From a virus: a DNA stretch of 64,000 nt. A program made the translations under genes and the position numbers. How positions within the stretch are numbered: the first letter of the stretch is position 1; each line of letters opens with the position of its first letter. Below are positions 8,276 through 31,222 of this stretch, piece after piece. The stretch is taken from the IMG/VR virus record IMGVR_UViG_3300045988_143923; one strand, given 5' to 3'. The notes beneath the pieces are model-generated. The model was given only the letters and a program-made list of their open reading frames with translations, was not told the DNA's origin and made no database searches.

Positions 8276-8440
8276 TTAGTCCGCAGAGTTGTCCTCTTCT
8301 GCGAGTTTTGAGAGTTGCTGTGCGAGGTTTCGGCAGCGCGTCAGCACTTCTGCCATGCGGATAGCATCATCGCCGCGGACTGAGATTTCCGCCAGACGAT
8401 TGTGAATCTGTGCTACTTCCGCGAGAATTTCTTTTGTCAT
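8276..8440 (-). CDS. small helical protein
   Basis: 54-aa ORF below the track cutoff, translated by hand as MTKEILAEVAQIHNRLAEISVRGDDAIRMAEVLTRCRNLAQQLSKLAEEDNSAD. It fills the gap between two tail genes. Confidence 0.35.
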   Translation of the reverse strand: MTKEILAEVAQIHNRLAEISVRGDDAIRMAEVLTRCRNLAQQLSKLAEEDNSAD

Positions 8441-8450
8441 GCGTGCTCCT

Positions 8451-9353: not shown

Positions 9354-9365
9354 AGATCAGCCTCC

Positions 9366-12755: not shown

Positions 12756-12770
12756 ACACACAGACCTCCT

Positions 12771-13559
12771 TTATGCGCCCACGTTGTACAGCATTCTGCC
12801 GCTGATTGTGAGCTTGCCGCTGCCAGTGATTTTCAGGTGATTATCACCGCGAACCAGCCGGAAAAAATTCATATTGAACTTGTCATACAGGTTTGTATCG
12901 TGGGATTCGGTGATGATACCGGCGTTGTTATCCACTGTAATGATAGAGTCAGCCGCGGGTACGCCCGTCAGCTTAAACTCGCGCCCATTGTCATCAGCGT
13001 TCACGATAGAGAAATCAGCCGCCGTCGGTTCAATGGTCAGCACGGGTTTGATGTACTCCCGAACCGAGCTGTTGTTCCGAAAGACGATTTCAGTTTCGCC
13101 GGCCACTTCGTATGTCTCTGTGAAAGGGAAGCCGTAAGCGTAAGGGCAGTCGCAGGTGACTGTAGCCTCAAATGCGAATGGCAGCCAGCCAACAGAGATT
13201 GGCTCGAGGTTTGTAATCAGGCAGCGGTACTGATAGTCTTCCATGTCAGGCTGACAGATGGAGAGCCATTGGTATTCCTGATAACCGGTCAGCCAGAGTT
13301 GAATCTCTTGAAAGTCGTAACGGTCAAGTGGCGTTTCCGAACCAAAGACAAGGTTGAACTCCAGAGGCTTCTCGTGGTAGTTTACGCCTTGATGAATTGG
13401 TTGAACGCGGCCGGTCGTTCTCGTTTCGATGATACTGGCTTCGTTACCGAACGCCGTGTCTTCGTTGCTTTTGCTGTCCAGATCACAGATAAAAAGGTTA
13501 TATGCCAGAGACGACTCTCCGGCGAACGTGAATTCGTAGGTGTTAAACAGGTTAAGCAC
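12771..13559 (-). CDS. distal tail protein (Dit)
   Basis: 262-aa ORF between the tape measure gene and Tal, which is the canonical siphovirus order. Confidence 0.7.
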   Translation of the reverse strand: MLNLFNTYEFTFAGESSLAYNLFICDLDSKSNEDTAFGNEASIIETRTTGRVQPIHQGVNYHEKPLEFNLVFGSETPLDRYDFQEIQLWLTGYQEYQWLSICQPDMEDYQYRCLITNLEPISVGWLPFAFEATVTCDCPYAYGFPFTETYEVAGETEIVFRNNSSVREYIKPVLTIEPTAADFSIVNADDNGREFKLTGVPAADSIITVDNNAGIITESHDTNLYDKFNMNFFRLVRGDNHLKITGSGKLTISGRMLYNVGA

Positions 13560-13602
13560 CTCCTATAGAAAGGCGCGGCATGTTTCCATACCGCGCTGGC
13601 CA

Positions 13603-16600
13603 TTATTTTTTGATTTTGAGAACTTCGATAATGTCGTTGACCATGCGGCGAGATACAGCTTCATGCTGCTTAACCGTGTCTCCGTCCGCACCCTTGATGA
13701 TGGTGTCACCGAAGGTAACGTTCGTGACGTTTTCACGCGGGATCGTGACAACTTCACGGTTCACGCCGGAAACAGGCATCTGAGCGGCCTTGGACAGGTC
13801 AGGCAGGGCAGAAGCGGACAAACCGCTGGTAATGGCGGACATTACCTTGAGAATGGAGTCGAGCGACTGCTGTTTGGGCTTGTCGAGCACGATTTCGCCC
13901 TTTTGCAGAATCGCCATCATCTCGTCTTGACGCAGGGTAGAGGCATCGCCGACAACGCCGCCGGTGTGGTATATACCGAGGTACTTATCATAGATGTTAT
14001 TGCCATACTTGTCATACCAAACACCAGTGTGACCATCATAGTGAACACCGAGATCGTACTGGCTGTTGAGTTGACCAGCATAGTCGGCATTCTTTTGGTT
14101 GAGCGCTTTCTTCTGCTCCACCGTCATGTTGGCAGACCAAGTATCACTGTTCTTCTTCATCTTCGCCACGATTCGAGCGATCCCAGCCGCATCTGCATCC
14201 CCAGTGCCGTATTTATTCGAATCGCCAATGATATTGGAGTTGGAACCGTTGGAAGAAGAATTGGAACCGTTTTCACCAAGACGATCATAGACTTCGAGGT
14301 AAGTAGCATTGTACTTCTCCATAGCCTTTTGGGCGTCTTGCCATGCTTGCGTAACCTTGGCATTGATGTCCGAACCCGCACGAGTGTTATATTCAATTAA
14401 ATCATCGTAAAGTGTTGCCCAACCATCTTGTATTCTCTTTCGAGCCATTTGGTAGAGTTTTTCCTCCGATGAAATTGAATCCTGCAGTTTCTTAATCTCG
14501 GCGTCCTTTTCCTTCTCGTAAGCCTCCTGCATCTTATCAAGATTATCGGTCTGACGGTCATAGGCTTCATTTGCCTGCGTCTCGCCAAGTTCTTTTTGGA
14601 GATCGGCGAGTTGTTCTTCAAGGTCTTTACGCTTTGCGATTGACTCGCGGCTGTCATCCAGAGACAGAGCGTTAATCTTCTCTTGGAGCTTTGCCATTTC
14701 CTTGACCTTGTCGGCTACCTCGTCCTGATAGTCGGCTTCGTCCTTGCTCAGTTGCAGGCTTTCCTTCTTCTTATCGATGATCTCGCTATACTTATCCTTC
14801 AGCTCTTCCAGAGCGTCGACCTGCTGGTCGATTTCGTCTCGAATCATATCCTCGACGTACTTGAACAGAGCGTCAACGCTATCCTTGGTGTCGTCGAAGT
14901 CGATTCCGACGCCGGCTTTTACGTTAGCCAGAACGCTGCGGTACGCATCTACATTCTTAACAGCCTGCGCATAGCCTTCCTCGGTGAGGTCAAGCATAGC
15001 GAGCTGTGCGTAAACGGAACCCCACTGAACCTCGGTCAGGTCGGCCGTTGCGTTCAGCAGATTATTCAGAGAAACAACGTCGTTCTCCTGCAGAGCCATA
15101 CGCAGACGCTCCACATAAGCGGAGGCGCTTTCCAAAGCCATCTGCTCAGTCTTAGCTTTGATAACGCGGTTGATGGCTTCCTCGTTGATGGTCAGAAGAC
15201 CATTCTCGTCTTTGAGGTATCCCATGTATTCGACGCCAAGTTTGGAGATTTCTTGGAAGGTATCGACGGAGATAAAACCACCATTTGTCGAGTATTCCTC
15301 GGCAGCCTTCTTGAACGTGTCGAGAACGTCCTGAATCGTATCAACAGAGTCGCTTGCCGCATCAACAATATCAGAGAGATAGTCGATAACTTTCTGCTTA
15401 ACATCCTTAACAGCGTCTTCGTATTCCCACCACTGATCTGAGAGGTCGGCCACTTCGTCGCTAAGGTCGGAATATCCCATGCCACGGTAATACTGCGCTT
15501 CCTTGTGCAGGTTCTTCTGAGCTTCGCGATAATGGTCAATGATGCCGTTGAGCGTAGACTCAATTGCGTCGCCATCGATAGACGAGAAGATAGTATCAAC
15601 AGTCTTGGTTTCGAAACTGTCTGCAATGCCGCTGAAGATGCCGGCCAGAGGATTGCCCTTCTTGGCGACACCGTTCAGAATATTCTGCGACAGCTTTGCC
15701 GAATTGAAAATCTTACGCTGAGCACGAGTGAAAGAGCGTTCGAGCTTATCAGTATCGAGCAGACGGTCAAGGCTTCGCTCGGCCAGTTTGATAGCATTTT
15801 CATGTTCCGACGTGATCTTGTCGTACATGTCCTTCATCGTGTCGATGATGCTGTCATGTGCCTCCCAGTATTTCTTCTGCATAGACATAATGTATTCAGA
15901 AGAATCTTTCTGCCCTTGAGCACGGTAACGCTCGGCGGCTTTATGGGTTTCATCCTGAATCTGCTTATAATAAGCGACAATCTTCATCGGGTCGCCACGC
16001 TGCTTTTCGACGAGGTATATCTTGTGCTCAATCTGGTCGATGATATCTTCGACTTCTTCTTTGATTTTGTCGAGAGCTTCCTTTGCAGAATCTGAAAGCT
16101 GAGAGGTATCAGCAGAGACTTTGACGGTGGCGTTACTGGATTTGCCAGATGAACTGGAAGGCACCCAGTTCCGGTAATGACCATTGGTGGCAAAGCTAAG
16201 ATTGCTCAATGCACCGTTAGCGTTCGCGCCGCCCCACACACCGCCAGATGCTTGATGGGGAATACCGCCGTGCATCAGACCAGCAGTCAGATTAGCAGGA
16301 ACAATCGCGTCACCGGGTTTAGTGTTGATGACTTCCATTCCATGCAAGCCAACAAATTTACTATGCTTGCCGTCCCGAGAAATCCACTGCTCAGGGCCAA
16401 GTTCGCCGACAAGTGTTTTGCCGCCTACAGCGTTGCCGCCAGATGCGTACTGAGTCATTTTGCCAACGTGTCCGGTGAAGTCTTGCTTTTTATTCCCCTC
16501 ACGGCGACTATGAATGTCAGCCTTGGTCTGAGCTTCGGTTCTGGTTGTCTGGACTGTGTTTACGCGAATGGTCACACTCTTATCGTGAATACCACTCATT

Positions 16601-19600
16601 AACCCAACTGTGTATAGAATCTTACTGTTGGCTTCCGAAGTATTTACATTGACATGGCGTTCTTTTTCGATAGGTTTAAGTGCTTCATCTATCGCATTGA
16701 CTTTCCCGGCAGCTTCCACAGTATTCCCTTCAATAGTAAGCTGTACTGGATTTCCCGCCTCATCTTGGATTTGCGCCATCGTACTCAATACAATTTGCGC
16801 CTGTTCTTGCGTAACACCAAGACTGCTTGCGAAAGCATCCAAGTTGCTCACATTGATAGACCAACCACCATCATCAAGACGTTCAACACTAGCAGCAGCT
16901 TCGCCCGAAGCGGTTTTCACGCTTTCAAGAGATGCTTTCAGGCCATCAAAAGTCGGAGTCTCTCCGCCAATGCTTGCCTTGAATTTATTCATGGCACTTA
17001 CAAGCGTGTCGAGCTCATCTACAGATATTTCTTTAACATCAATATCCGTTCCTTCAGTAAGAGACTCGAGTGCGATTTTCGCACTTTCACTCATGTGCTC
17101 CCATGCTTTTGTGGACGACCGATCAGCCGCAGAAACAGATTGTTTGATACGATAGGTGTCATCGTTCAGCGTCTGGATACTTGATGTAACCGAACTAACT
17201 GTTTTCGGAACATAATCCGAATATGTGGAGATTAAATCAAGTGATTGTTGCAGAGAAGCTGCCGAAATTCCAAAAGCGTCGGCCAGAGCGACAACATCAT
17301 GTTGTGCGACTTGGATAGAACCAGTATCCCAATCCACATCCATGAGTCCATCGACAATCTTTTTCTTGTCAGCACTGAGCTCGTTATACTTCTTATGAAG
17401 TGTATTAAACGTTCCGGTTAGGTCTTGACCGACATTATCCTCGTCTGTACCTGTTAAGAAGAGGCCCTCATTGTCCTTAACCCACTGCTTCGCTTCTTGC
17501 AGGCTAACAACCTTGCCGATGAGAAGCTCCATTTGATTGCGAGCTTCCTCTGTGTTAATTTGCCCTTTATTTACTGATTCTGCAAAATCATCGTAGATTG
17601 AAACCATACTCTCGTGATCTTGTACATGGTCGGTAATCCCTTCCATAGAGGTTTCATAATTTGCAAGAGCATCAGAAACCGTATTAAGAGAGTCAGTTTG
17701 TTTGCTCAGGGAATTTGAAATCGCATCCAGAGCTTCAGGCAAAGCGCCAACTTGAGCAAGAGCGGCCAACCGAGCGGCAAATTCCGAAGCATGATCGCCA
17801 GTATCAACCAGAGCGGAATTGAGAGCGGAAAGTTGATTCTTTGACAATTTTTCGAGATTGAAGTCCTTGAGAAGCTCGTCTACGGAAGAACCTTCAATAT
17901 CTGAGCCGCTTAGAGCCTCTTCGAAATTACTCCGGATGGTCTCTCGCATTTGATACATGTCTGACTGGAATTGTTTTAATCCGAAAGCCTCAGACAAATC
18001 AATTGCGTTCATTTCTTCAGGAGTTAATCGTTTCGATAATTCTGCGCGAACAGCCTCCATCACTGTTGACATTTTTGCAACATATTTATCGTAAGGCATC
18101 GAGTCCTGTTCTTCTTGAATCTTATAATAATCAGAAATAGCCTTTTTCCCTGCTTCGGTGTTTTTAACAACTTGAAGCATCGCATTCGCATATCTTAACG
18201 GCGCGTCGGGATTATTTGCGTCATAAAGCGCGTCAGAACTAATGCTGTCAGCGTATTGTGATAAAAATGTTTTCTGCTGGTCATCTAATTCGTAATAGAG
18301 TTTATTCGCCTCAAGAGACGCTTGCATCATCTGCTTGACCTCGGAGCTACTTGCATCTACACTCTCAGAAGCAGAATGCCAAGCATTAGCTAAACTTTCG
18401 CCATCTGCCGATAAATCGCCTGTCATTCCACGCATTTGATTCAATTGACCGAGAATATTATCAAAATTCTTTCCAAGAGCTTCGGAATTATCGCGAATAT
18501 AATCAAGCCAAGTAACACTTTTAGAGCCGTTGGTTTCTTTGTTGATTTTATCAGCGTACTCATCGTAAGTCATACCAATAGTGTCGGAAATTAACTTATT
18601 GAAATTCTTAATATCTCGGCCGCCGTTTTTAGACAAAGCAGTTTGAACCCGAGATAAATAATTAAAGATGTCATTATCGACACTTTTTACGCCTTCCTGT
18701 GCTGTTTTATATTGTTCTTGGAAGTCTTTATAGGCAGCTTCATAATTCTTCTTATGACCGTCATTCTCTGATGATCCACCATATACGGCATCTCGCGCTT
18801 CCTGTCTCTGCTGCTTCTCGAGTAATGCGATTGTTTCCTCGATAGCAGAATTTTTATCCAAGATAGCTTGTTGCTCATCGTTATAACCCTCCACTAATGA
18901 TGGATTGATCCCAACAAGTTGGGAAACAATATCTTGGTATTCTTGATATTCATCGGCAGCCAGAGAAATATTTTTGCCGTTGTCTGTTACGCCCTTGGAC
19001 AATTCTGCGAATCGATCTTTGAGATTTTCGACTGACGTAATATTGCCCTCGATAGATGATTTGGCGCTGTCGTAGTTGCTCAATGCATTTTGGGTTATTT
19101 CGGCTGCTTCTTGTGCGGACATCACTGTTTTATCAATAGCACTCATAAGACCGGTTAGTATAGTCTGAACAGCCATAAATGCTACCATCGACACGGCCAT
19201 ACTTGCAATAGCAGACCCGATCCCCTTAAAAGTCGATGCAATCTTGGCTCCGAGTGTTCCTACCTTTTCTTGCTTTGCAGTGAAGTTATCGATTTGTCCG
19301 TTAACAACATCACACTCATTCCCGACGGTGTCAAGGGATTTAGCAAACTCACGACTTTGAATACTTGCGCCAGAAAGAGCTTTTTCAAAATCAGCACCTC
19401 TAAGTTTTTGCTTCATCTGAGCGTAGTTTTTCAGAATTTCATTTTGTTCCTGCCAATAGTCGTGGTTTTTGGTGTTATAATTTTTCAGCCAACTGAATAA
19501 ACCACTTCCGCCAAAGATGTTTTCTCCATATTCTCCCTTTCCTCCGATAATGCTTTTCCCGTTCATTGACAGAAGCAGGGAACCTACAGGAGCGATAAGC

Positions 19601-19865
19601 CCCGGAAGAACGCCAAGTTTATCAATCAGAGTGTTGAAGAACCCGAGAATGCCAGAACCGGCGCCGATAGTTCCTTTCACAAGACCAGAATCAAGAATAG
19701 AAGTGCTCAAAGACTGGAATGTGGCTTGGAACTGTTGCATTTTACCCTCGATAGAATCAAGATGTTTTGCGTTCTCGGCATCGGCTGAGCCAGTTGCGTT
19801 TTTAGTCGACTCGATGACGTCCTCAACGGTCGACCAGTTCTGGATGAGCGCTGAAGTTGTATTCG
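13603..19865 (-). CDS. tape measure protein, exon 7
   Basis: The ORF 13603..19869 begins mid-domain (ANTTSALIQNW...HLDSIEGK). It is long and helical and has the C-terminal YHTGGVVG motif. The acceptor was placed after G19866. Confidence 0.8.
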
Positions 19866-20274
19866 CCATTCTCTTCGTTTTGTTTACAAGGGTTGCAAAG
19901 CCTTATGTTGTATCTACAACCTCATGCTTTCGCATGAGACCCGACTATTTCTTCACCCTTAAAACTAAGGGGCATACCTTTTCCATTTAAGGGATTTTCA
20001 CCCACGCCTTTGCTTGCGCCGTACTCCTGTTGCTCATAAAGAGCCGAGGGATAGTCTGTGAACCTTCTCCGTGTCATGAGACCGATAGGAGCTTGGCTGC
20101 ATGATCACCCATTGTTACTGCACTTAGGCTTTTGACCGTATGCAATCCGCACGTTGTTTCTGCTTTCGCACCGTCATAAACTGCTTTCGCGCTCATTGTG
20201 GTGTGCGGCTTTAGGGGGTACCTGCAATTAAATATGTTGTTATTGCACATTGCTGTACAACCGGGCAAGTGAAT
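19866..20274 (-). ncRNA. group I-type intron 6 (family A)
   Basis: mRNA-sense core CACAGACUA ... GAAGAAAUAGUCGGGUC (19938-19958). P1 is CGGGU|A...UGCCCG with a U.G pair. P9-like hairpin CUCAUGC-GAAA-GCAUGAG. Ends in G. Boundaries are within about 10 nt. Confidence 0.7.
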
Positions 20275-20309
20275 ACCCGAAATCTTTTCGAGCAAAGCTC
20301 AGTATATTC
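20275..20309 (-). CDS. tape measure protein, micro-exon 6 (NILSFARKDFG)
   Basis: A 35-nt segment that keeps the frame between exons 5 and 7 when homologous splice positions are used in introns 5 and 6. An alternative register is possible. Confidence 0.45.
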
Positions 20310-20705
20310 CACGGGGGCACAACTCCCGTGAGCTGTCTAAAACAGCATCTCTGCGTTTCCACAGAAGTTTAGATCATTTCTTAATCGTGCCTTTCGGCGA
20401 CGACCACACCGTTTCCATTTAAGGGGTTCTCACCCACGCCTTTGTTTGCGCCGTACTTCTGTTGCTGCTTACGCAGCCCTACATGGGAATGATCGTTTGA
20501 CACACCTCTATTCGAGGCTTCGCGACCAAGCTACCATTGTCACTGCACTTAGGCTTTTGACCGTATGCAATCCTTACCGTTGTTTTACTTTCGTTCCCGT
20601 CATGCCAGCTTATTTCATCCGCATTGTGGTGGTAAGGCTTTAGGTTTTACTGGTTTTAGATGTGTTATTTACGCACATTTCTGTACGCACAGGCAATATT
20701 GGTCT
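20310..20705 (-). ncRNA. group I-type intron 5 (family A, paralogue of intron 6)
   Basis: Clearly alignable with intron 6 over most of its length. Core CGAUCA ... UAAGAAAUGAUCUAAAC (20367-20386). The P1 helix is CAGGC|A...UGCCUG, with C-G where U.G is expected. Confidence 0.65.
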
Positions 20706-20944
20706 GCCTGATCTACGTCACTAAGTTGATCATAAACGCCGGCAATTTCGCGCATAATCTGCGTTGTACTCTTAAATTGAGTGCCTGCCTCGTCGGCCAT
20801 GATGTCAACTTTGTCGTGGGTTAAAGTTTTGATGGTTTCGCGAAGCTCGCTCACAGAGTTTGCCATACCATCCGTTTCGATTCCGGCCTCTTCAGCATCA
20901 GCTTTAGCGGCACGGAGGTACATACTAAGAGTTTTAGCCCATGT
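20706..20944 (-). CDS. tape measure protein, exon 5
   Basis: TWAKTLSMYLRAAKADAEEAGIETDGMANS...QLSDVDQA, the central TMP core, lying inside ORF 20669..20980. Confidence 0.7.
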
Positions 20945-21132
20945 CAATCTGTTACTTTCGGCGGGTCGCCTACTGACCACTTTTGTGGCGGCAAGGCCGT
21001 TAAACCTTGCTCTCGCGTTTCGTTGTTAGATTATAGCGCGAGTTCGGACTGTATCTTCACCCCAGAGCGGGGGAATGGCGAAGCCCCGCTTGTTACCAAG
21101 CGGGGCTTTACAGTCTCTACGGATATTAAAAT

Positions 21133-21660
21133 TTAAGTTATTGGAATGCTGACCGGTTCATCGAAAGAATATAGATCATGATCATTATCCATATAATATA
21201 CTAAATTTGCACTAGTTATATTATCTCGATCATCCCAATGTTCATTGTTACTATCTATGCTCAAAAATCCATCAAATGTTTGATCTGGGGCTAATAAGCC
21301 CGTATGCGTAAAACCTTCGGAGTAAACAATATTCCCGTTTGAATCCAATAAATCTGCACCAATAAGCGGAGATTTCAAAGCAGATCCAGAAATATTTTTT
21401 ATTTTGAAGTAAAAATACATTACAGATTCGCTCTCGTAATTTTCGCATTTTTTAGTTTGAAATGTAACTTCCAAAGGTATATCCACAGGACTAGTTTCAG
21501 GCTTAGCATCAGATTCATCTATTACCGTATATGTTGTAGCTGGAGATTCATCTTGAGCAGGCTCAGCTTTCTCAACGGATTCCTTCCCGCAACCGCAAAA
21601 GCTAAGCGTAGTTATAATAGCCAACAATATAAGGTGGCGTTTTCTTTTCATATTTCTCAC
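21133..21660 (-). CDS. putative lipoprotein encoded inside intron 4
   Basis: 175 aa. Signal peptide MRNMKRKRHLILLAIITTLSFCGC with a lipobox-like LSFCGC, followed by a beta-rich Ig-like domain. Markedly AT-rich. RBS AAAGGGTGAG. Confidence 0.75.
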   Translation of the reverse strand: MRNMKRKRHLILLAIITTLSFCGCGKESVEKAEPAQDESPATTYTVIDESDAKPETSPVDIPLEVTFQTKKCENYESESVMYFYFKIKNISGSALKSPLIGADLLDSNGNIVYSEGFTHTGLLAPDQTFDGFLSIDSNNEHWDDRDNITSANLVYYMDNDHDLYSFDEPVSIPIT

Positions 21661-21673
21661 CCTTTCAACTTTA

Positions 21674-21701
21674 ATTATACATTAAAAGAAGAAAAAGTAA
21701 A
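21674..21701 (-). promoter_or_regulatory. candidate SigA promoter for the intron-borne lipoprotein gene
   Basis: Minus-sense TTTACT, 16 nt, TATAAT, ending about 25 nt upstream of the ATG. Confidence 0.45.
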
Positions 21702-21803
21702 TCTTAAATTTTAATCTTTCCTCGGTCTGAACCGTCTCCGGCCTTTAACCGATATAGCCATTTGCTTGCTCGCATATTACTATGCGGCTGGGCGCATGGA
21801 TTC

Positions 21804-21825
21804 ACCCACTGTATCAGGATCTTGT
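21804..21825 (-). CDS. tape measure protein, micro-exon 4 (QDPDTVG)
   Basis: A 22-nt segment that completes the Val codon and then encodes QDPDTVG, the conserved TMP core motif expected between ...TAANEV and GT.AKT. Confidence 0.6.
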
Positions 21826-22108
21826 CGTTTCTGTTACTTGTTAGCGCTGATATACCACTAATCTGACCGCAAAGCGGCGGCAAGGTCTTTCGGCCTTACT
21901 CTCACGTTTCCTTTCATTATTGCGTGAGTCCGGACTGTATATTACACCCTTCCCAGAGGAGTGGGGTGGATTGGTTCAGCTCTGGTGTTACCATCAGAAC
22001 CCCGCAGTCTCTACGGATATTGCTACCCACGGTCTCTGCTGTCGCCAGCCTTTGACCGTTTTACCAATCTGCTTGCGAACGTATTACTACGCCGCGTGGC
22101 AAAGATCT
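21826..22108 (-). ncRNA. group I-type intron 3 (family B)
   Basis: P1 is GUGGU|...GCCAC with a U.G pair. Core GAGACUG ... UAAUAUACAGUCCGGACUC (21926-21949). 3' end AGUAACAGAAACG. Confidence 0.7.
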
Positions 22109-22214
22109 ACCACTTCGTTTGCTGCTGTTACGAGGCCCAAACTCTCATCGAGAGAGTTGCCGCCTGCGTACAGAGCTGCTGCTGATCTTTTAAGAGCTTC
22201 GCCAAGCCCTTCTG
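22109..22214 (-). CDS. tape measure protein, exon 3
   Basis: Encodes (S)EGLGEALKRSAAALYAGGNSLDESLGLVTAANEV(V), a canonical TMP core. It is not part of any ORF in the track. Confidence 0.7.
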
Positions 22215-22556
22215 CGTACCTTTAGCGCGGGTCGTTACTCCGCACCGACATAAAGTCCTCCGTCTTTCAACGGAGCCGAGATCATATCTTCACCCCATAG
22301 GGTGCCTACCACTTTCAGAGCACTCGCCCCTACTTTGATCGTTGAACCTTCCTCTGTTCGAGGCTTGGCTGCTGATTATCCATTGTCACGGCGTTTAGGG
22401 TTTAACCTTGCGCCATCTCTCATTTTTTTTCTGCTTTCGCCGCATTCACGTTTGCGCCTGTTCGGCACTGCGTTGTAGCATGAGAGCTTTAGGACGTCCC
22501 AGCAATTCAATAGGTGATTTTGCGAACACATTTCTGTGAACGAAGTCCAATGATTA
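22215..22556 (-). ncRNA. group I-type intron 2 (family A)
   Basis: P1 is AAGUU|U...GGACUU. Core CGAUCA ... GAAGAUAUGAUCUCGGCUC (22273-22295). It shares blocks with introns 5 and 6 (ACAGAAAUGUG, GUGACAAUGG, CAGCCAAGC). Confidence 0.7.
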
Positions 22557-22579
22557 AACTTATCGCGTAGTTGTTTCCG
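22557..22579 (-). CDS. tape measure protein, micro-exon 2 (GNNYAIS)
   Basis: A 23-nt segment. Joining it gives ...DRFNEV-GNNYAIS-SEGLGEAL..., which matches the usual TMP core. Confidence 0.6.
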
Positions 22580-22856
22580 CTGTTTGTTACTTTTTTCCTT
22601 AAAAACGAAAAGAACAGGTCATTTCTGCCTGTTTCTGCAATTTCATTATTCGATTATATTTGCAGACCCGACTATATCTTCACCTCCAAAAAAGGAGGGG
22701 ATGGCATGACTCTGCACGTTACCGTGCAAAATCGGTTAGTCTGTACGGATTCTTGTGGTCAAACACAAGTCTTTCCTCGGTATTGCCCATCTCTGGGTGT
22801 TCACCGATATAGCCATCTTTTACGCTGCACATCGCTGTGCAGGGAGGCCGGTCAAA
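22580..22856 (-). ncRNA. group I-type intron 1 (family B-like)
   Basis: P1 is GAGGU|...GCCUC. P2 CUGCAC/GUGCAG. P3 AUCGGU/ACCGAU. P7 CAGACUA/UAGUC. P8 UGCACG-GUAA-CGUGCA. Core GAAGAUAUAGUCGGGUC (22663-22687). 3' end AGUAACAAACAG. Confidence 0.75.
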
Positions 22857-24532
22857 ACCTCATTGAAACGGTCTACGACGCTTCCAACATCATCAGCAGC
22901 AAGATGGAAGCCCTGCAGAGTAGAAACAAGCGACTGTGCCGCGTCCTCAATGTTCGTGTATTCCGACACGTTCATATATTTGGTCGCCCAGTCGCCAAGA
23001 TTGGAGGCATCCTCCAAATTAAATCCGAGTCGGCTAAACTCAGATGTTGCTCCAATTACATCCGTAATCGAAGCGCCGAGGCTCTTCGCGCGTTCACCAG
23101 CGCTGTCAAGATAATTAGCGTAATCCTGACTTGAACCTTCCGAAACCTTTTTCAGGTCGGTCATCGCCGTGTCAACGTCGATAACATTCTGGAGCGTCTG
23201 CTGTAAGCCATTCTGCAATAAGTGCAGTCCTGCCATCGCAATAGCCGTGTTAAAGTGATCCTTGAACAGGCGAGTCAGCTTCTGCCCGACAGTTTCAGAC
23301 GTAAACCCGAGTTCTTCCATACTGGAGCGAACAGATGCGAGGTCTCTTTGAAGTCCCTCAACGCTATCACCTTCGCCCGGGTTTCTCGCACGGCTCATAA
23401 TGTTCCGCAGTTCGCCTTGAAAATAAGAACCCGCCGCTTTTGGGTTATTTTTAAGTGTTTCGCTGGCCTGCCGATAAATGTTCGCCAAATGTTCCTGCGA
23501 TCTCTGAGAACGAACGGTCGCAGTTTGCTTAGCATTAAACAAATCTGCCTGTGCGCTCGCATCAGCCCACGCGGAACGGAGTCCATTCAGGCCCTGCTCC
23601 AGCTCATAAGTACCGGCCGCCGCATTCTGGAAAACAGATTTTGCATTCTCGAATGCCGTCCAATCATAATTCTGCAGCGTCCCTTTATCTTTTAGAGCCT
23701 GAAGCTGCGTTATATATTTCTGGCCGGATGCCAAAACATTATCAGTAACCGACTGAGAGTTCTGTCTGGACACTGTAGTCCACATCTTCTTGATGTTTTT
23801 CTCAAGCGCGTACTTCTCTGGCGTAAAATCCGCCATGCTCTTGTACTGTTTGAGCATCTTATCAAGGCTGGCTACATTCTCCTCACCAAAAAGGTTACCC
23901 TTCTTGAGCTTTCCAAACTTAGAGCTAATCTGCTGAACATCCAACATAGATCGCTCGGCCTTTTCTGCAGCCTTCAAATTGTTGCGAGAGAACGCAATAT
24001 TGGTCGCCTGCTGTGCCTCTTTCAGAGCGTTAACGCTTTCTACAGTTCCCTTGGTCGTTGACTCAAACTTCTTCATCGCGGTTTCAGCCGCCGAGATAGC
24101 CTTTGAATCGATAGGACTCGGCATGTTCTTCAGATACGACATCGTCTGTCTCAAGCCGGTCGCCTGACGCTCCATTGTACGCAACTGCCGTTCCGCAGCC
24201 TTCTCTGCGTCTGTTTTGCCCGATGTGGAGCTTTTAGACGAGCTGCTCTTTGTGGTAGAGGAGCGGGTCGAAGCCGCAGAAGACTTAGCTTTGCCGGAGC
24301 TGTTTGTTCCAGTTCCGGCCGCCGAGATAGCCTTTTTAATCTGAGCAGTGATATTGGCAGTATCAACGTTTACTTTCAGCTTGGTTGAGGAAGCGTTTTT
24401 GATTGCTGAACTGATACTTTTCTGCAGAGCTGCAGCATCAACTTGAATTGGAAAATCCTTGTAGTTACTGAGGGCGCTTTCGAGTTTGTCAAAATTAGGG
24501 ATAAGTTCGACAGTAACGCCTAAATCAGCCAT
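22857..24532 (-). CDS. tape measure protein, exon 1
   Basis: ORF 22820..24532 runs MADLGVTVEL...SVVDRFNEV and then reads into the intron (LTGLPAQRCAA stop). RBS AAGGAAGGTGA. Confidence 0.8.
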
Positions 24533-24548
24533 AAATTCACCTTCCTTA

Positions 24549-24611
24549 TAGCAAAAAAGCCGCGGAAAGGCGCGGCTAAAATAAAAGAAGCACCACGGAA
24601 ACGTGGTGCTT
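24549..24611 (-). terminator. two tandem rho-independent terminators
   Basis: In the minus sense, GCACCACG-TTTC-CGTGGTGC followed by a T-run (24588-24611), then AGCCGCG-CCTTTC-CGCGGCT followed by TTTTTT (24552-24577). Both lie between the membrane ORF and the TMP start. Confidence 0.6.
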
Positions 24612-24621
24612 GGGAATCTTC

Positions 24622-25209
24622 TTAAATTTTAGAACTGTTCTTGGGATATTTAATTTCGACCCGAGAAATTTTCGCAGTGTCTAACGCAATTTTTCGAGTG
24701 TCGTCTTCTTTGTAATCAAATATCGGTTCATCCGCATGTGATTCGCTACCCTGATATTTTTTGTAATTAGTTAAAACAATCCACTGTCGGCCATCCTCGC
24801 TTTTGTGATCTTCTGTAAAATATCCACGATAAGACACATCAGAATCACTTAGATATACGCGGAGCGTAGTTCCTTTTTCGAAGTCGGATATTGCATACCA
24901 GACATCTTCTTCGAGCGTTTTATAGAAGAATTGGTCGAGAATACATGATACAAATTCAGAATTGCGGAGAATGCCACCAACGAACCCGAAAGCAAAAGAA
25001 AATGCAAGGATTGCTAAAATACTAATTTGAGGATAAACAGAGCGAAGAACGACAGTCAGAACATAGCTCCAAATAATTGTAGTTGCGGAGAAAATATCTC
25101 TTTTAGCCGAATAGCGTGCTGTCAGTTTATATGCGAACATAAAAACAGTAGCAGGCACAAAATATACCATTATTTTGTCGAGATTTTCTAAAATATACTC
25201 AATGTTCAT
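24622..25209 (-). CDS. AT-rich integral membrane protein (moron candidate)
   Basis: 195 aa with three or four N-terminal TM helices and a soluble C-terminal domain. Lower GC than its neighbours and followed by its own terminators. Confidence 0.65.
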   Translation of the reverse strand: MNIEYILENLDKIMVYFVPATVFMFAYKLTARYSAKRDIFSATTIIWSYVLTVVLRSVYPQISILAILAFSFAFGFVGGILRNSEFVSCILDQFFYKTLEEDVWYAISDFEKGTTLRVYLSDSDVSYRGYFTEDHKSEDGRQWIVLTNYKKYQGSESHADEPIFDYKEDDTRKIALDTAKISRVEIKYPKNSSKI

Positions 25210-25217
25210 AGATGCTC

Positions 25218-25424
25218 CTATTCATCATCGATAGGTTTGCGACGCTTTCCACCACACACAAGGCGTGCGGGCTTTGTAAATCCACGGCGAGCATGTCGTT
25301 TGCATTGCCCTTTGAAGCATCCGTAAATACGGATATTGGAAGTCCTGCGATGATTATCGCTCATATACCAACCGTGCATATTGCTGCTGGTTCGAATTCT
25401 TCCTCTAACAGTCTTCCGTTTCAT
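25218..25424 (-). CDS. small highly basic protein
   Basis: About 68 aa starting at MKRKTVRGRIR after the RBS GGCGGAG. Arg/Lys-rich with no recognisable family. It may not be a real gene. Confidence 0.3.
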   Translation of the reverse strand: MKRKTVRGRIRTSSNMHGWYMSDNHRRTSNIRIYGCFKGQCKRHARRGFTKPARLVCGGKRRKPIDDE

Positions 25425-25486
25425 AATATCTCCGCCAATCTTTATTTCTGGAGACATTATACATCTTTCCGTTTCGCCTGTCTACT

Positions 25487-27772: not shown

Positions 27773-28780
27773 TCACTTTTCGGCTTCTTCTGCCTCCGCA
27801 GCGCGTTTGTTTTCAAAGAACTTGCTCAGTCGCTCGCTGGCTGGCACATCGTTATAAACCTGTACCATCGCGCTGTTCGCCCAGCCGACCACATCGGTAA
27901 TATCGCTCTCAGACATACCGTCACGCACCAGATTGGACACAAAAAGGTGCCGCATAGAGTGCCAGTAGAACGGCTTAACCGTGAATCGGTCAATCGTCTG
28001 TGCCCAGCTGTTCAAAGTCTCGGCCGAAGCCTGCTCGTAACCCTTATCGGTTTTGGTCACGAACAGCCATTCGCTGTTAATGCTGAGGTCTTTACGCTGC
28101 TGTAACCAGCGTTTCAGGTACGGGTCAAATCCTGATTTTATAACGTAGCAGTCGATCATCTTCGCACCCTTGGTCAAAACCTTCTCGGGAGTGCAGTAAA
28201 AATAGTCAAAAACCACGTTTTCAGGCTTAAACCAGTCCACTTTGAATCGAGTCAGTTCAGCCTTTCGGCGACCGCTGTAGACTGCCAGAGCGAGAGCACA
28301 GGCAATCTGAAACTTGCCCGCCTCAGTCAGTTTCTGCAGAATAACCTCCATCTCCTCGGTGGAGAAGACGCTCTTCTCACGGACAGGCGTATTCTGTGGG
28401 TTCTCAATCTTGCGGATGATCGGACGGAAGTCCTCGTATTCATCGTCAAGGATGTTCTCGATGTAGTTCGAGAGAGAAGAAAGCGCCGCCTTTACACGGC
28501 GCACACGGGCAGGGGAGTTGCCGTTCTCGTTGATGAGCCAGTTCTGTAGAGAAACAATCTCTCGCTTTTTCAAATCAATGAACGACTTATTTCCGCAGTG
28601 CTGGAGCACATAAGTGAATACGATAAGCAGGTCGCTCTTGTATCCTTTAATCGTGCCTTCACTGCGTTTTAGAGAACGAAGATACTCCAGAAAATCATTC
28701 ATCAACTGAATGTTCTCCGGATTTATCTGCTTCGTCAGCTCCGGAGAGGTCAGCTTGTTCATCTGTGTCTGGCGTCCCAT
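27773..28780 (-). CDS. int: tyrosine recombinase / integrase
   Basis: Start refined to MGRQTQ after the RBS GGAAAGGAGGG. SAM-like N-domain (EGTIKGYKSDL). C-terminal catalytic region with HSMRHLF and GWANSAMVQVY. Confidence 0.8.
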   Translation of the reverse strand: MGRQTQMNKLTSPELTKQINPENIQLMNDFLEYLRSLKRSEGTIKGYKSDLLIVFTYVLQHCGNKSFIDLKKREIVSLQNWLINENGNSPARVRRVKAALSSLSNYIENILDDEYEDFRPIIRKIENPQNTPVREKSVFSTEEMEVILQKLTEAGKFQIACALALAVYSGRRKAELTRFKVDWFKPENVVFDYFYCTPEKVLTKGAKMIDCYVIKSGFDPYLKRWLQQRKDLSINSEWLFVTKTDKGYEQASAETLNSWAQTIDRFTVKPFYWHSMRHLFVSNLVRDGMSESDITDVVGWANSAMVQVYNDVPASERLSKFFENKRAAEAEEAEK

Positions 28781-29360
28781 CTTCACCCTCCTTTCCGAAA
28801 AGGCCGTAGACGAGGTTGTCTGCTGTGGAATCATCCAGTGTGCCGGACAGCAGTGCCTTCGCAGTATCAACATCAATGCCGGTAATCACATTCTTCAGAC
28901 CACTCATCAGGTCAGTCGCCGCGTCTGCGATACGGTCAAACGGGTTAGACTGGGTCATTGCCTGCATCAGTACCAACTCGGTATCAATCGCGGCGTTAAT
29001 CTGCTTGTAACAAGCCTCTTCCAGCTCAGCCAGTTTATCCTCGCCGATAACCTCTGCAATCAGAGTATAGATATCGGTCTTGTACAGCAGAGCAGCTTCA
29101 AAGCCACCATCCAGTGAGATATGCAGGTCAGTGCAAATCTTCACGACAGCGGAGCGGAAAGCCCAGTCAACCAGACCAAAATTGCGGCCGTCACCGTCAT
29201 CAATATGCTGGCCGACCTCATTTACAATAGTCGCACGCATCTTCGGGGTAATCAGCGGCTTAATCTTGATTGGAATAATGGTCTCGCCGATAGTGAGATC
29301 CTTGGTTACAGACTCTACATACGGAGTCAGAGCCGCCATAATATCAGTCTTCTTGGACAT
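28695..29360 (-). CDS. hypothetical acidic protein
   Basis: 221-aa ORF whose 3' end overlaps the integrase start. A tail-chaperone role is possible from position only. Confidence 0.5.
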   Translation of the reverse strand: MSKKTDIMAALTPYVESVTKDLTIGETIIPIKIKPLITPKMRATIVNEVGQHIDDGDGRNFGLVDWAFRSAVVKICTDLHISLDGGFEAALLYKTDIYTLIAEVIGEDKLAELEEACYKQINAAIDTELVLMQAMTQSNPFDRIADAATDLMSGLKNVITGIDVDTAKALLSGTLDDSTADNLVYGLFGKEGEDGTPDTDEQADLSGADEADKSGEHSVDE

Positions 29361-31050: not shown

Positions 31051-31126
31051 TGGCACGAGTGCTTCGAGTCGAACGAAGATCGGAGAATTTTGGAGATTCC
31101 CAGTTTCCCAATTAGCCTACACTCGC
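31051..31126 (-). tRNA. tRNA-Trp (anticodon CCA)
   Basis: Manual cloverleaf. Acceptor GCGAGUG/CACUCGU, anticodon stem GGAAU/AUUCU, loop CUCCAAA, T-arm CUUCG-UUCGACU-CGAAG, discriminator G, encoded CCA. Confidence 0.8.
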
Positions 31127-31129
31127 ATG

Positions 31130-31222
31130 TGGCAGAGATGGTTGGATTCGAACCAACGAGCGAGAGCGTTACCTCTCTTGGCGGAGTCAAATTCCGCTGC
31201 CTTACCGCTTGGCCACACCTCT
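31130..31222 (-). tRNA. class II-shaped tRNA with apparent UUG anticodon (isotype ambiguous)
   Basis: Manual fold. Acceptor AGAGGUG/CAUCUCU, 3-bp D stem GCC/GGC, anticodon stem GCGGA/UCCGC with loop AUUUGAC, a roughly 23-nt variable arm (GAGAG-GUAACG-CUCUC), T-arm GUUGG-UUCGAAU-CCAAC, discriminator G73, encoded CCA. Confidence 0.65.

What the first reader, a model, noticed from the sequence alone, without database searches (positions are those of the whole stretch)
19866..22856. Tail tape measure gene split into seven exons by six group I-type introns
Three separate minus-strand ORFs (22820..24532, 20669..20980, 13603..19869) each encode consecutive pieces of a single TP901/PF10145-type tape measure core. 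The missing connecting peptides are present as short in-frame segments in the gaps: GNNYAIS (22557-22579), SEGLGEALKRSAAALYAGGNSLDESLGLVTAANEV (22109-22214), QDPDTVG (21804-21825) and NILSFARKDFG (20275-20309). In the mRNA sense, each of the six gaps carries a copy of the group I J8/7-P7 core element: GAAGAUAUAGUCGGGUC (22663-22687), GAAGAUAUGAUCUCGGCUC (22273-22295), UAAUAUACAGUCCGGACUC (21926-21949), GAAGAUACAGUCCGAACUC (21040-21064), UAAGAAAUGAUCUAAAC (20367-20386) and GAAGAAAUAGUCGGGUC (19938-19958). For comparison, the Tetrahymena element is AAGAUAUAGUCGGACC. The upstream partner strand covaries with it (CAGACUA/UAGUC, CGAUCA/UGAUC, GAGACUG/CAGUC). Predicted 5' splice sites lie in P1 hairpins with the canonical U.G pair in five of the six introns (GAGGU|..GCCUC, AAGUU|..GGACUU, GUGGU|..GCCAC, UGGGU|..GCCCA, CGGGU|..GCCCG). 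Every intron ends in G. Joining the exons gives one open frame of 8364 nt (2787 codons) that reads ...DRFNEVGNNYAISSEGLGEALKRS...TAANEVVQDPDTVGTWAKTLSMYLR...DVDQANILSFARKDFGSNTTSALIQNW.... To my knowledge, phage genes with introns usually carry one to three, so six in one structural gene would be exceptional.
Basis: partly seen in the sequence, partly recalled or inferred. Interest (0 to 1): 0.92.

Follow-up and report, generated by a model that had tools for sequence, protein, structure and literature searches.

The report
Six-intron phage tape measure gene
The tail-length ("tape measure") gene of a common SPbeta-like prophage, apparently from gut Clostridia, is split by six self-splicing-type group I introns within 3 kb; this kind of intron is already known in such genes, but six in one gene is more than I found described for any phage gene.

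Summary
Minus strand 13603-24532 is one TP901-type tape measure gene (8364 nt, 2787 codons) cut into seven exons by six subgroup-IA-like group I introns. Each intron has a natural intron-less allele in near-identical public contigs. At least nine independent metagenome assemblies carry the same six-intron region at 98.7-100% identity, so it is not an assembly chimera.

Two splice sites were each wrong by 10 nt. Intron 5 ends at G20300, exon 6 is 20275-20299, and exon 7 starts at 19875. The product reads ...DVDQAALLEKISGKRMANTT..., restoring a near-invariant GKR motif.

Rfam reaches its gathering score for two introns. The other four rest on covariation (class B: 96% of cells paired, 40 of 65 pairs compensatory) and helix-by-helix checks.

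None of the six encodes a homing endonuclease. Relatives carry endonuclease-bearing versions at three of the same sites.

Two oddities:
- Intron 5 has a C-G pair instead of U.G at its 5' splice site.
- Intron 4 carries a low-GC lipoprotein gene with a promoter-like site.

Introns in tape measure genes were already described, with 1-2 per gene. This is a new, extreme member of a known kind. Splicing itself is untested.

The parts
22857..24532 (-). Exon 1 (1676 nt). Start codon ATG at 24532, preceded by the ribosome-binding site AAGGAAGGTG. Ends ...DRFNE + GT.
   Evidence: PF10145 positions 3-85 only (26.8 bits) when this ORF is read alone.
22580..22856 (-). Intron 1, 277 nt, class B (IA-like, has P7.1), no ORF. 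P1 is GAGGU/GCCUC with U.G. P10 is CGG/CCG. Ends in G22580. Phase 2.
   Evidence: Rfam 32.7 bits, E 8.8e-6. Covariation. Absent precisely in L001 and L092/L103.
22557..22579 (-). Exon 2, 23 nt, encoding (V)GNNYAIS.
   Evidence: L001 joins 22857|22579..22557|22214. Near-invariant FNEVGNNYAISS in homologues.
22215..22556 (-). Intron 2, 342 nt, class A (large P5 extension, P7.1/7.2, 3' extension after P9), no ORF. P1 is AAGUU/GACUU with U.G. Ends in G22215. Phase 1.
   Evidence: Rfam RF00028 69.2 bits, above the gathering score of 50. Absent in L001 and L103.
22109..22214 (-). Exon 3, 106 nt, encoding SEGLGEALKRS...TAANEV.
21826..22108 (-). Intron 3, 283 nt, class B, no ORF. P1 is GUGGU/GCCAC with U.G. 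P10 is AAGAUC/GAUCUU. Ends in G21826. Phase 2.
   Evidence: No Rfam hit. Structure from covariation. Absent in L002. L104 has the same intron type at this site with a phrog_559 endonuclease ORF in P6.
21804..21825 (-). Exon 4, 22 nt, encoding (V)QDPDTVG.
20945..21803 (-). Intron 4, 859 nt, class B (67% identical to intron 3 without the insert). A 585-nt insert sits in the P6 loop. P1 is UGGGU/GCCCA with U.G. P10 is CAUGG/CCAUG. Ends in G20945. Phase 0.
   Evidence: Covariation. Empty site in L104. L098 has this intron type at the same site with a phrog_1271 endonuclease ORF.
21133..21651 (-). Gene carried inside intron 4: a 172-aa predicted lipoprotein (lipobox LSFCGC), GC 35.5%, with an Ig-like beta-sandwich fold. 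It is not an endonuclease.
   Evidence: AlphaFold pLDDT above 90 for residues 55-172. Fold hits to ApaG, DUF4352 and DUF5067-like proteins. GC content.
21674..21701 (-). Promoter-like site TTTACT-16-TATAAT, 23 nt upstream of the lipoprotein ATG. It is the best match in the region (10 of 12).
   Evidence: This is a consensus match only; function is not shown.
20706..20944 (-). Exon 5, 239 nt, encoding TWAKTLSMYLR...DVDQ + GC.
20300..20705 (-). Intron 5, 406 nt, class A (65.5% identical to intron 6), no ORF. P1 is CAGGC/GCCUG, so the pair at the cleavage site is C-G, not U.G. Ends in G20300. Phase 2.
   Evidence: Rfam 15.5 bits, E 1.3. Helices P1-P9 verified. Absent precisely in L114 and L089-L093. 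Homologues L088 and L096 at the same site also have C at position -1.
20275..20299 (-). Exon 6 (revised), 25 nt, AGCTTTGCTCGAAAAGATTTCGGGT, encoding (A)ALLEKISG.
19876..20274 (-). Intron 6 (revised 3' end), 399 nt, class A, no ORF. P1 is CGGGU/GCCCG with U.G. P10 is AAG/CUU. Ends in G19876. Phase 0.
   Evidence: Rfam 61.2 bits, above the gathering score. Absent in L104 and L117-L126, where the alignment resumes at 19875. The 3' core resembles the phi3T/SPbeta bnrdF intron.
13603..19875 (-). Exon 7 (revised start), 6273 nt, encoding KRMANTTSALIQNW... to the stop codon.
   Evidence: Followed by Dit (12771-13559) and a minor tail protein (9366-12761).

Best explanation
The minus strand 13603-24532 is a single gene for a 2787-aa TP901-family tape measure protein. 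It belongs to an SPbeta-like temperate siphophage of gut Clostridia/Lachnospiraceae.

Six group I introns of the IA type interrupt the conserved core of the gene. There are two sequence classes: I1, I3 and I4 (class B), and I2, I5 and I6 (class A). The introns sit in three pairs, separated by micro-exons of 23, 22 and 25 nt.

After transcription, each intron is expected to fold on its own. Its P1 and P10 pairings lie within its own flanking exons. It would then excise by the usual two guanosine-initiated transesterifications, joining the seven exons into one 8364-nt reading frame.

All six introns have lost a homing endonuclease gene. They persist passively and reshuffle by recombination between co-circulating phage variants. 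Endonuclease-bearing versions at sites J3, J4 and J5 in relatives explain how the sites were colonised.

Shown here: the intron borders, the RNA architecture, the restored protein, the presence/absence polymorphism and the population prevalence. Inferred: that splicing actually occurs, and how efficiently.
For: 1. Restored protein.
- The spliced core matches PF10145 over 3-201/201 and TIGR01760 over 27-340/349 in one stretch. ORF1 alone stops at profile position 85.
- 218 homologues were found, and many are uninterrupted. The alignment shows no indel at any junction.

2. Empty sites at DNA level.
- I1 and I2 are absent in L001 and L103. I3 is absent in L002. I4, I5 and I6 are absent in L104. 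I5 is absent in L114 and L089-L093. I5 and I6 are absent in L117-L126.

3. RNA.
- RF00028 scores: I2 69.2 bits, I6 61.2 bits, I1 32.7 bits.
- Class B: RNAalifold on an unguided alignment recovers P1-P9.1. With P7 added, 96.1% of cells pair and 40 of 65 pairs show compensatory changes. None of 500 shuffles reaches this, and slid controls give 30-39%.
- Class A: helices P1, P2, P3, P7, P8 and P9 were checked by script. All six form in the right order in I5, I6 and L088; in L096 the P8 strands I supplied pair only partly. For I2 the P1 and P3 strands I gave the script were wrong and were re-paired by hand. P7 covaries.
- The cores resemble known phage introns, including phi3T bnrdF.

4. Not an artefact.
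- Nine independent assemblies are colinear with window 24600..19700 at 98.7-100% identity.
- The intron-4 ORF is listed in 673 index blocks.

5. Context.
- YomU/V/W/N tail genes in relatives, with Dit and a minor tail protein downstream.

6. Endonuclease-bearing relatives at the same sites.
- phrog_559 in L104 (site J3) and L096 (J5); phrog_1271 in L098 (J4).
Against: - There are no RNA data. The one search for the spliced E5|E6|E7 junction in metagenome contigs found nothing.
- I3 and I4 get no Rfam hit, and I5 scores only 15.5 bits.
- I5 has a C-G pair at the cleavage site. In Tetrahymena, changing U.G to C-G raises P1 undocking about 80-fold (PMC1891724).
- In I5, P10 to the revised 3' exon is only 2 bp. 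A cryptic 3' site is therefore conceivable.
- Folding six ribozymes in one transcript, with 22-25-nt exons between them, may need protein help.
Confidence: 0.88

Rival explanations
1. The introns are genuine, but at least one of them splices poorly or needs a phage or host protein cofactor. Intron 5, with its C-G cleavage-site pair and weak P10, is the main candidate. The six-intron allele would then make little full-length tape measure protein. That could throttle or time tail assembly, or it could mean a crippled prophage.
For: - C at position -1 in I5, L088 and L096.
- The U.G pair is required for Tetrahymena ribozyme activity, and a C-G substitution destabilises docking.
- There is a competing P10-like pairing in I5 (direct reading of the sequence).
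- In Bastillevirinae, four of the eight introns that spliced did so only in infected cells (PMC11878797 abstract).
Against: - The C is forced by the invariant Ala codon (GC|N).
- It is conserved, with its G partner, in three lineages whose intron cores are otherwise intact and covarying.
- The six-intron allele accounts for nine of the ten places listed for the exact intron-4 ORF.
- Related contigs are in the IMG/VR viral collection.
Confidence: 0.15
2. The gene is a decayed pseudogene, or a set of independent small proteins. The gaps are insertion debris and are not removed at the RNA level.
For: - ORF callers split the locus into 570-, 84/103- and 2088-aa products.
- Rfam does not detect I3 or I4.
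Against: - All exons join in one frame with no indel relative to homologues.
- Micro-exons of 22-25 nt are kept.
- The intron helices retain compensatory changes.
- The internal pieces have no start codon or ribosome-binding site of their own.
- The same arrangement appears in many samples at 99-100% identity.
Confidence: 0.02
3. The six-intron arrangement is an assembly chimera of two strains, one carrying I1-I4 plus I6 and the other carrying I3-I6, joined in their shared I3-I4 region.
For: - The window is 97-98% identical to L089/L091 on the exon-1 side.
- It is 99.4% identical to L092/L103 on the exon-7 side.
- Both groups share 21641-22214.
Against: Nine assemblies from different samples and projects are colinear over the whole 4.9 kb. 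Two of them are 100% identical.
Confidence: 0.01

Closest known systems
Group I introns in tape measure genes of Bacillus cereus-group prophages (TMP-IVS1, -IVS2, -IVS3a/b; Tourasse & Kolsto 2008, PMC2504315)
   Same: - IA-type group I introns in the tape measure gene of temperate siphophages of Firmicutes.
- Mostly lack a complete endonuclease gene.
- Patchy presence or absence among related prophages.
- Related introns adapted to neighbouring sites by changing P1. Their IVS1 and IVS2 are 80% identical; here I3/I4 are 67% and I5/I6 65.5% identical.
   Different: - Three sites and at most two introns per gene there. Here there are six in one gene within 3 kb, with 22-25-nt exons.
- Different host clade: gut Clostridia.
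- One intron here carries a lipoprotein gene.
SPbeta/phi3T bnrdE and bnrdF introns
   Same: - Same broad phage type: Yom-family tail genes.
- The 3' core of the I5/I6 class matches the 3' part of the phi3T bnrdF intron.
   Different: - The host gene there is ribonucleotide reductase.
- The bnrdF intron carries the HNH endonuclease yosQ.
- There is one intron per gene segment there, not a stack.
Vibrio phage ICP1 tape measure intron (Barth et al. 2023, PMC10448857)
   Same: - A tape measure gene interrupted by a spliced intervening sequence.
- The carried gene varies between isolates while the surroundings are conserved.
- Boundaries of genetic exchange lie at such elements.
   Different: - One locus carrying one or two HNH endonuclease genes, with splicing shown by RNA-seq.
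- Here there are six endonuclease-less introns, and splicing is not shown.
Multi-intron phage genes and intron-rich phages (Bastillevirinae, PMC11878797; Jug phages, PMC12880540)
   Same: Several IA introns per gene in conserved genes of phages infecting Firmicutes or found in the gut. Gene fragments are mis-annotated as separate ORFs.
   Different: - Up to three introns per gene in Bastillevirinae.
- Jug phages average 18.5 introns per genome, but their terL is split into only 2-3 fragments.
- Most Bastillevirinae introns (32 of 45) carry endonuclease genes. None of the six here does.
Organellar genes packed with group I introns, such as fungal mitochondrial cox1 (my own knowledge, not checked here)
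   Same: Many group I introns stacked in the most conserved part of one protein gene, short exons between them, and presence/absence polymorphism.
   Different: An organelle rather than a phage. Those introns commonly encode LAGLIDADG or GIY-YIG endonucleases or maturases.

Membership tests
Group I intron (Rfam RF00028) | Score at or above the Rfam gathering score (50 bits) | tested here: inconclusive
   Met by I2 (69.2) and I6 (61.2). Below threshold for I1 (32.7, E 8.8e-6) and I5 (15.5, E 1.3). No hit for I3 or I4. The single general model is known to miss divergent or ORF-split introns.
Group I intron | Core helices P3-P9 in canonical order, with the P3/P7 pseudoknot, supported by covariation | tested here: met
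   - Class B (I1, I3, I4, L098): 96.1% of cells paired and 40 of 65 pairs compensatory. None of 500 shuffles reaches this; slid controls give 30-39%.
- Class A: P1, P2, P4, P5 and P6 come from RNAalifold. P3, P7, P8 and P9 were checked by script in I5, I6, L088 and L096, except that P8 in L096 pairs only partly with the strands I supplied.
- I2 and I6 align to the full Rfam model.
Group I intron | P1 formed by the 5' exon end and an internal guide sequence, with a U.G wobble at the cleavage site | tested here: met
   U.G is present in I1, I2, I3, I4 and I6 (the I2 pairing AAGUU/GACUU was read by hand). The exception is I5, which has C-G (CAGGC/GCCUG), as do its homologues L088 and L096.
Group I intron | Terminal G (omega-G) at the 3' end, and P10 to the 3' exon | tested here: met
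   With the revised borders all six end in G: 22580, 22215, 21826, 20945, 20300 and 19876. P10 is 3-6 bp for I1, I2, I3, I4 and I6 and only 2 bp for I5 (direct reading of the sequence).
Group I intron | Precise excision restores the host reading frame | tested here: met
   The frame is open across all junctions. Natural intron-less alleles exist for all six sites.
Group I intron | Guanosine-dependent self-splicing, in vitro or in vivo | not testable with these tools
   No transcript data. The spliced-junction search in metagenome contigs found no hit.
Subgroup IA | Extra helices P7.1/P7.2 between P7 and P3' | tested here: met
   In class B, P7.1 is predicted with 8 of 9 pairs compensatory (helix 8). 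In class A, Rfam alignments show 22-70-nt insertions at that position. I did not assign IA1, IA2 or IA3, because no subgroup models were available.
Mobile (homing) group I intron | Intron-encoded homing endonuclease | tested here: not met
   - No ORF in I1, I2, I3, I5 or I6. The I4 ORF is a lipoprotein with a beta-sandwich fold.
- No endonuclease Pfam family among 73 window ORFs.
- Relatives do carry phrog_559 or phrog_1271 endonuclease ORFs at J3, J4 and J5.
TP901-family tape measure protein (PF10145 / TIGR01760) | Full-length match to the curated domain models, and position in the tail module | tested here: met
   PF10145 74.4 bits over 3-201/201. TIGR01760 98.2 bits over 27-340/349. Dit and a minor tail protein lie downstream.
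Ltp-type superinfection-exclusion lipoprotein (considered for the intron-4 ORF) | Lipoprotein signal peptide plus the Ltp fold or family | tested here: not met
   The lipobox is present. The fold is an Ig-like beta-sandwich resembling ApaG, DUF4352 and DUF5067. There is no Pfam or NCBIfam family above cut-off. That Ltp is helical is from my own knowledge. A similar role is not excluded, but membership is.

The most novel reading that the evidence does not exclude
The stack of introns may not be mere parasitism.

- Endonuclease-bearing introns circulate at the same sites in relatives (J3, J4, J5). Each occupied site can no longer be cut by a co-infecting relative's homing endonuclease. The six-intron allele could therefore be favoured in phage-versus-phage competition, and it would mark recombination boundaries.
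- Intron 4 may have swapped its endonuclease for a prophage-expressed surface lipoprotein. That would make a ribozyme the vehicle of a lysogenic-conversion or superinfection-exclusion gene.
- The I5 family would be a natural group I lineage that works with a C-G pair at the cleavage site.
Probability: 0.3. Interest if true: 0.75.

Novelty: new member of a known kind. Interest (0 to 1): 0.58.

Why it matters
- **Annotation.** This is a very common prophage; the sample labels suggest human gut. The intron-4 ORF alone is listed in 673 index blocks. Its tape measure gene is routinely called as three to four unrelated ORFs, so tail length, gene counts and protein clusters are wrong. Dozens of the fragments in the protein database end or begin exactly at intron sites.
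- **Intron biology.** Six introns lie within 3 kb, separated by 22-25-nt exons. Every combination from two to six introns occurs in near-identical genomes, and endonuclease-bearing and endonuclease-less versions share the same sites. This is an unusually complete natural series for studying gain, loss, site-switching (I3 to I4, I5 to I6) and cargo replacement.
- **Ribozyme resource.** I1 and I3 are compact at 277-283 nt and have no ORF. I5 offers a natural test of the near-universal U.G rule.
- **Limit.** It does not change the picture of what group I introns are.

Tried and rejected
- **Megablast of 13600-24600 against GenBank phages.** No match.
- **Rfam for I3 and I4.** Nothing, even at E up to 10 on 3.7 kb. 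I used covariation instead.
- **Rfam at gathering score on ten more distant relatives' loci.** No group I hit. So what ends many homologue ORFs near residues 805-820 remains unexplained.
- **MAFFT plus RNAalifold for class A.** The 3' half was misaligned, so I checked the helices by script instead. In that script my first P1 and P3 strands for I2 were wrong; I re-paired them by hand.
- **Covariance model of my own.** Not built. The introns are 280-400 nt, beyond the practical calibration limit.
Rejected.
- **A one-base-shifted border for I5 (CAGGCA|...GA|).** Rejected, because the intron would then end in A.
- **Pfam on the endonuclease-like ORFs of L104, L098 and L096.** No useful hit. PHROGs did give hits.
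- **Metagenome-contig scan for the spliced E5|E6|E7 junction.** No hits.
- **Assembly chimera.** Rejected.
- **Intron-4 ORF as a homing endonuclease or an Ltp homologue.** Rejected.

Full report
**Observation**

The degenerate J8/7-P7 motif KAAKAWAYRRTC occurs six times in the 64-kb window. All six hits are on the minus strand, one in each gap, against 0.46 expected by chance. The pattern was derived from these sites, so the informative result is that nothing matches elsewhere.

Rfam RF00028 passes its gathering score of 50 bits for gap 2 (69.2 bits) and gap 6 (61.2 bits). On the region alone, gap 1 scores 32.7 bits (E 8.8e-6) and gap 5 scores 15.5 bits (E 1.3). Gaps 3 and 4 give nothing.

**Protein test**

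The conceptually spliced core matches PF10145 and TIGR01760 end to end in a single stretch. ORF1 alone stops at PF10145 position 85 and falls below the curated cut-off. A search of 5.8 billion proteins gave 218 homologues. Many of them cover 92-100% of the spliced core as one uninterrupted protein. In the alignment, junctions 1-4 fall inside near-invariant motifs (FNEVGNNYAISS.G.GEAL and VVQDPD.VGT..KT.SMYLR) with no indel. Dozens of other homologue ORFs begin or end exactly at the predicted junctions. That was the first sign of intron presence/absence polymorphism in relatives.

**Correction of two splice sites**

Relatives L089, L090 and L093 lack intron 5 and read ...DVDQAALLKTISG before intron 6. 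In the window, the same frame gives GCT TTG CTC GAA AAG ATT TCG GGT, which is ALLEKISG. This matches the near-invariant GKR.(A/S)N of homologues.

The revised map is:

| Feature | Coordinates (minus strand) | Length |
|---|---|---|
| Exon 5 | 20944-20706 | 239 nt |
| Intron 5 | 20705-20300 | 406 nt |
| Exon 6 | 20299-20275 | 25 nt |
| Intron 6 | 20274-19876 | 399 nt |
| Exon 7 | 19875-13603 | 6273 nt |

The total is still 8364 nt. The evidence for the revised map is:
- Mean blastp score against 75 homologues rises from 100.1 to 112.7 bits.
- TIGR01760 rises from 82.4 to 98.2 bits, and PF10145 now covers 3-201/201.
- Intron 6 gains a P10 pairing (AAG:CUU) next to P1.
- Intron-less alleles read ...GGC AAGAGAATGGCGAATACAACT, identical to the revised junction.

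**Empty sites and independence of the assembly**

| Introns absent | Loci |
|---|---|
| I1 and I2 | L001, L092/L103 |
| I1, I2 and I3 | L002 |
| I4, I5 and I6 | L104 |
| I5 | L114, L089-L093 |
| I5 and I6 | L117-L126 |

So each of the six introns has a natural, precisely intron-less allele.

The window resembles one group of relatives on the exon-1 side and another on the exon-7 side. I therefore tested whether it could be an assembly chimera. Nine assemblies from different samples are colinear with window 24600..19700 at 98.7-100% identity, and two are identical over 4901 nt. The exact intron-4 ORF is listed in 673 blocks of the assembly index. Three of the nine carrying contigs are 331-439 kb long, which means an integrated prophage.

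**RNA architecture**

The introns form two classes:
- Class B: I1, I3 and I4. Pairwise identity is 58-67%.
- Class A: I2, I5 and I6. Pairwise identity is 56-66%.

For class B I used an unguided MAFFT alignment of four sequences: I1, I3, I4 without its insert, and a distant homologue, L098. RNAalifold on this alignment recovers P1 (U.G in all four), P2, P3, P4, P5, P6, P7.1, P8, P9 and P9.1. After adding the P7 pseudoknot, 96.1% of cells pair and 40 of 65 pairs carry compensatory changes. None of 500 shuffles reaches this, and sliding the 3' partners gives 30-39% paired.

For class A, RNAalifold finds P1, P2, P4, the P5 extension and P6. I checked the remaining helices by script. P3, P7, P8 and P9 form in the canonical order in I5, I6 and L088. 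In L096, P8 pairs only partly with the strands I supplied. For I2, the P1 and P3 strands I first gave the script were wrong, and I re-paired them by hand. P7 covaries across the class: GAUCA/UGAUC, GACUA/UAGUC and GGUCA/UGACC. I2 and I6 also align to the full Rfam model.

All six introns have helices between P7 and P3', which is the IA hallmark. Distant blastn finds the cores in 196 phage records, mainly Staphylococcus and Bacillus phages. One match is the 3' part of the phi3T/SPbeta bnrdF intron. nhmmer profiles of both classes find no further copy elsewhere in the window.

**Who carries it**

In relatives, the neighbouring genes are YomN, YomU, YomV and YomW, plus RuvC, ClpP and PhoH. Downstream of the gene are Dit and a minor tail protein. 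A 981-aa ORF gives a weak RdRP-family hit, reminiscent of SPbeta YonO (the YonO link is my own knowledge). Genome-collection relatives are in Lachnospiraceae and Clostridia assemblies.

**Population picture**

| Locus or group | Introns |
|---|---|
| Window and the nine colinear assemblies | 6 |
| L099-L102, L114 | 5 (no I5) |
| L103 | 4 (I3-I6) |
| L117-L119, the longest contigs of the L117-L126 allele | 4 (I1-I4) |
| L104 | 3 |
| L105, L106 | 2 |

L118 and L120 add a further intron site in the exon-7 part, with a GIY-YIG ORF. Identity between relatives changes abruptly at the intron clusters. This fits the reported association of such elements with exchange boundaries (PMC10448857).

No endonuclease family is detectable among 73 window ORFs. 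Relatives, however, have the same intron types at the same sites carrying endonuclease genes: phrog_559 in L104 (J3) and L096 (J5), and phrog_1271 in L098 (J4). phrog_559 is the family reported in Bastillevirinae terminase introns.

The most similar introns are also positional neighbours. I3 and I4 are 22 nt apart, and I5 and I6 are 25 nt apart. This suggests site-switching by change of the guide sequence, as described for B. cereus TMP-IVS1 and IVS2.

**Two oddities**

1. *Intron 5 has a C-G pair at the cleavage site.* Intron 5 follows the second base of an invariant Ala codon (GC|N). The cleavage-site pair is therefore C-G, not U.G. The same is true in L088 and L096. In the Tetrahymena ribozyme, that substitution raises P1 undocking about 80-fold. 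I5 is therefore the intron most likely to be inefficient.

2. *Intron 4 carries a lipoprotein gene.* The P6 loop of intron 4 holds a 172-aa ORF.
   - It has a lipobox and a GC content of 35.5%, against 46-49% for the exons.
   - The best sigma-70-like match of the region (TTTACT-16-TATAAT) lies 23 nt upstream.
   - The predicted fold is a confident Ig-like beta-sandwich.
   - Some relatives carry a highly divergent lipoprotein at the same place.
   - Its function is unknown. A prophage-expressed surface protein is my inference.

**Comparison with what is known**

- Group I introns in prophage tape measure genes were described in 2008. That study found three sites and at most two introns per gene.
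- The ICP1 tape measure intron is spliced in vivo.
- Bastillevirinae genes carry up to three introns.
- Jug phages average 18.5 introns per genome.
- Searches for reports of four to seven group I introns returned one phage paper (on Silviavirus), which I did not open. I do not know whether its five introns are in one gene.

The kind is therefore known. The new points are six introns in one gene, the micro-exons, the carried lipoprotein gene and the C-G splice site. The literature search covered open-access papers only.

**Not done**

Nothing here shows RNA splicing. The single junction search in the metagenome collection was negative and is uninformative.

Noticed in passing
window 31130-31222 (-) and 31051-31126 (-): A 93-nt tRNA-Gln(UUG) has a roughly 21-nt extra arm (hairpin GAGAG...CUCUC) in the variable region. 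This is unusual for a Gln tRNA. A tRNA-Trp(CCA) lies next to it. Both sit inside the tail module.
   Followed up: no
window 24578-25486 (-), including ORF 24622-25209 and hairpins 24611-24588 and 24577-24558: A roughly 0.9-kb segment lies between the PhoH-like gene and the tape measure start. It holds a 195-aa ORF with no family hit and two terminator-like hairpins. It is absent from relatives L003, L109, L113, L115 and L116, so it is a variable insert directly upstream of the gene.
   Followed up: partly
window 27773-28876 (-): A tyrosine recombinase/integrase gene sits in the middle of the tail-gene block, together with ClpP, PhoH/PIN, RuvC and an SLH-domain NAGPA protein.
   Followed up: no
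window 45426-48371 (-): A 981-aa ORF gives a weak RdRP-family Pfam hit (E 5e-5, just below the cut-off). This is possibly a YonO-like single-subunit RNA polymerase, as in SPbeta. The link is from my own knowledge.
   Followed up: no
window 21641-22214 and 20706-21161, compared with L089-L092: Identity to relatives changes abruptly at the intron clusters. Against L092 it is 99.4% downstream of exon 3 but 90% in exon 1. Against L089/L091 it is 97.8% upstream of the intron-4 ORF but 80-85% downstream. Recombination breakpoints therefore coincide with the introns.
   Followed up: partly
L118 11374-12414 and L120 7018-8058: In relatives that lack I5 and I6, the long 3' part of the tape measure gene is split into 1435-aa and 743-aa pieces by a segment encoding a 346-aa GIY-YIG protein. 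This is a further intron site that is not occupied in the window.
   Followed up: no
Homologue ORFs P0068, P0082, P0085, P0098 (ending near residue 661); P0059, P0061, P0067, P0097 (near 736); many ending near 805-820; L005 11067-12806; L080 7144-7243: Many homologous tape measure ORFs end at three further positions. L080 has a weak class-A-like match there. Rfam at gathering score found no group I intron in ten such loci, so the cause of these breaks is unresolved.
   Followed up: partly
L094 (Enterocloster phage CB457P1, record 8340-9529): Isolated Enterocloster bolteae phages of about 100 kb carry a class-A-like intron core in an unannotated gap next to an I-TevI-like 'intron-associated endonuclease 1'. 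It probably splits the two flanking 'hypothetical' ORFs.
   Followed up: no
L019 7554-7797 (-): A FuFi-1 sRNA family hit (61.8 bits, gathering score 59.6) lies just downstream of the tape measure core in a distant relative.
   Followed up: no
window 20300-20310 and 20688-20695 (-): In intron 5, the P1 loop AAUAUU can pair with AAUAU 5-9 nt upstream of the 3' splice site. The conserved 3'-terminal element GGAAUAUAYUG is shared with L088, whose loop cannot make this pairing. It may be a possible cryptic 3' site or just chance.
   Followed up: partly
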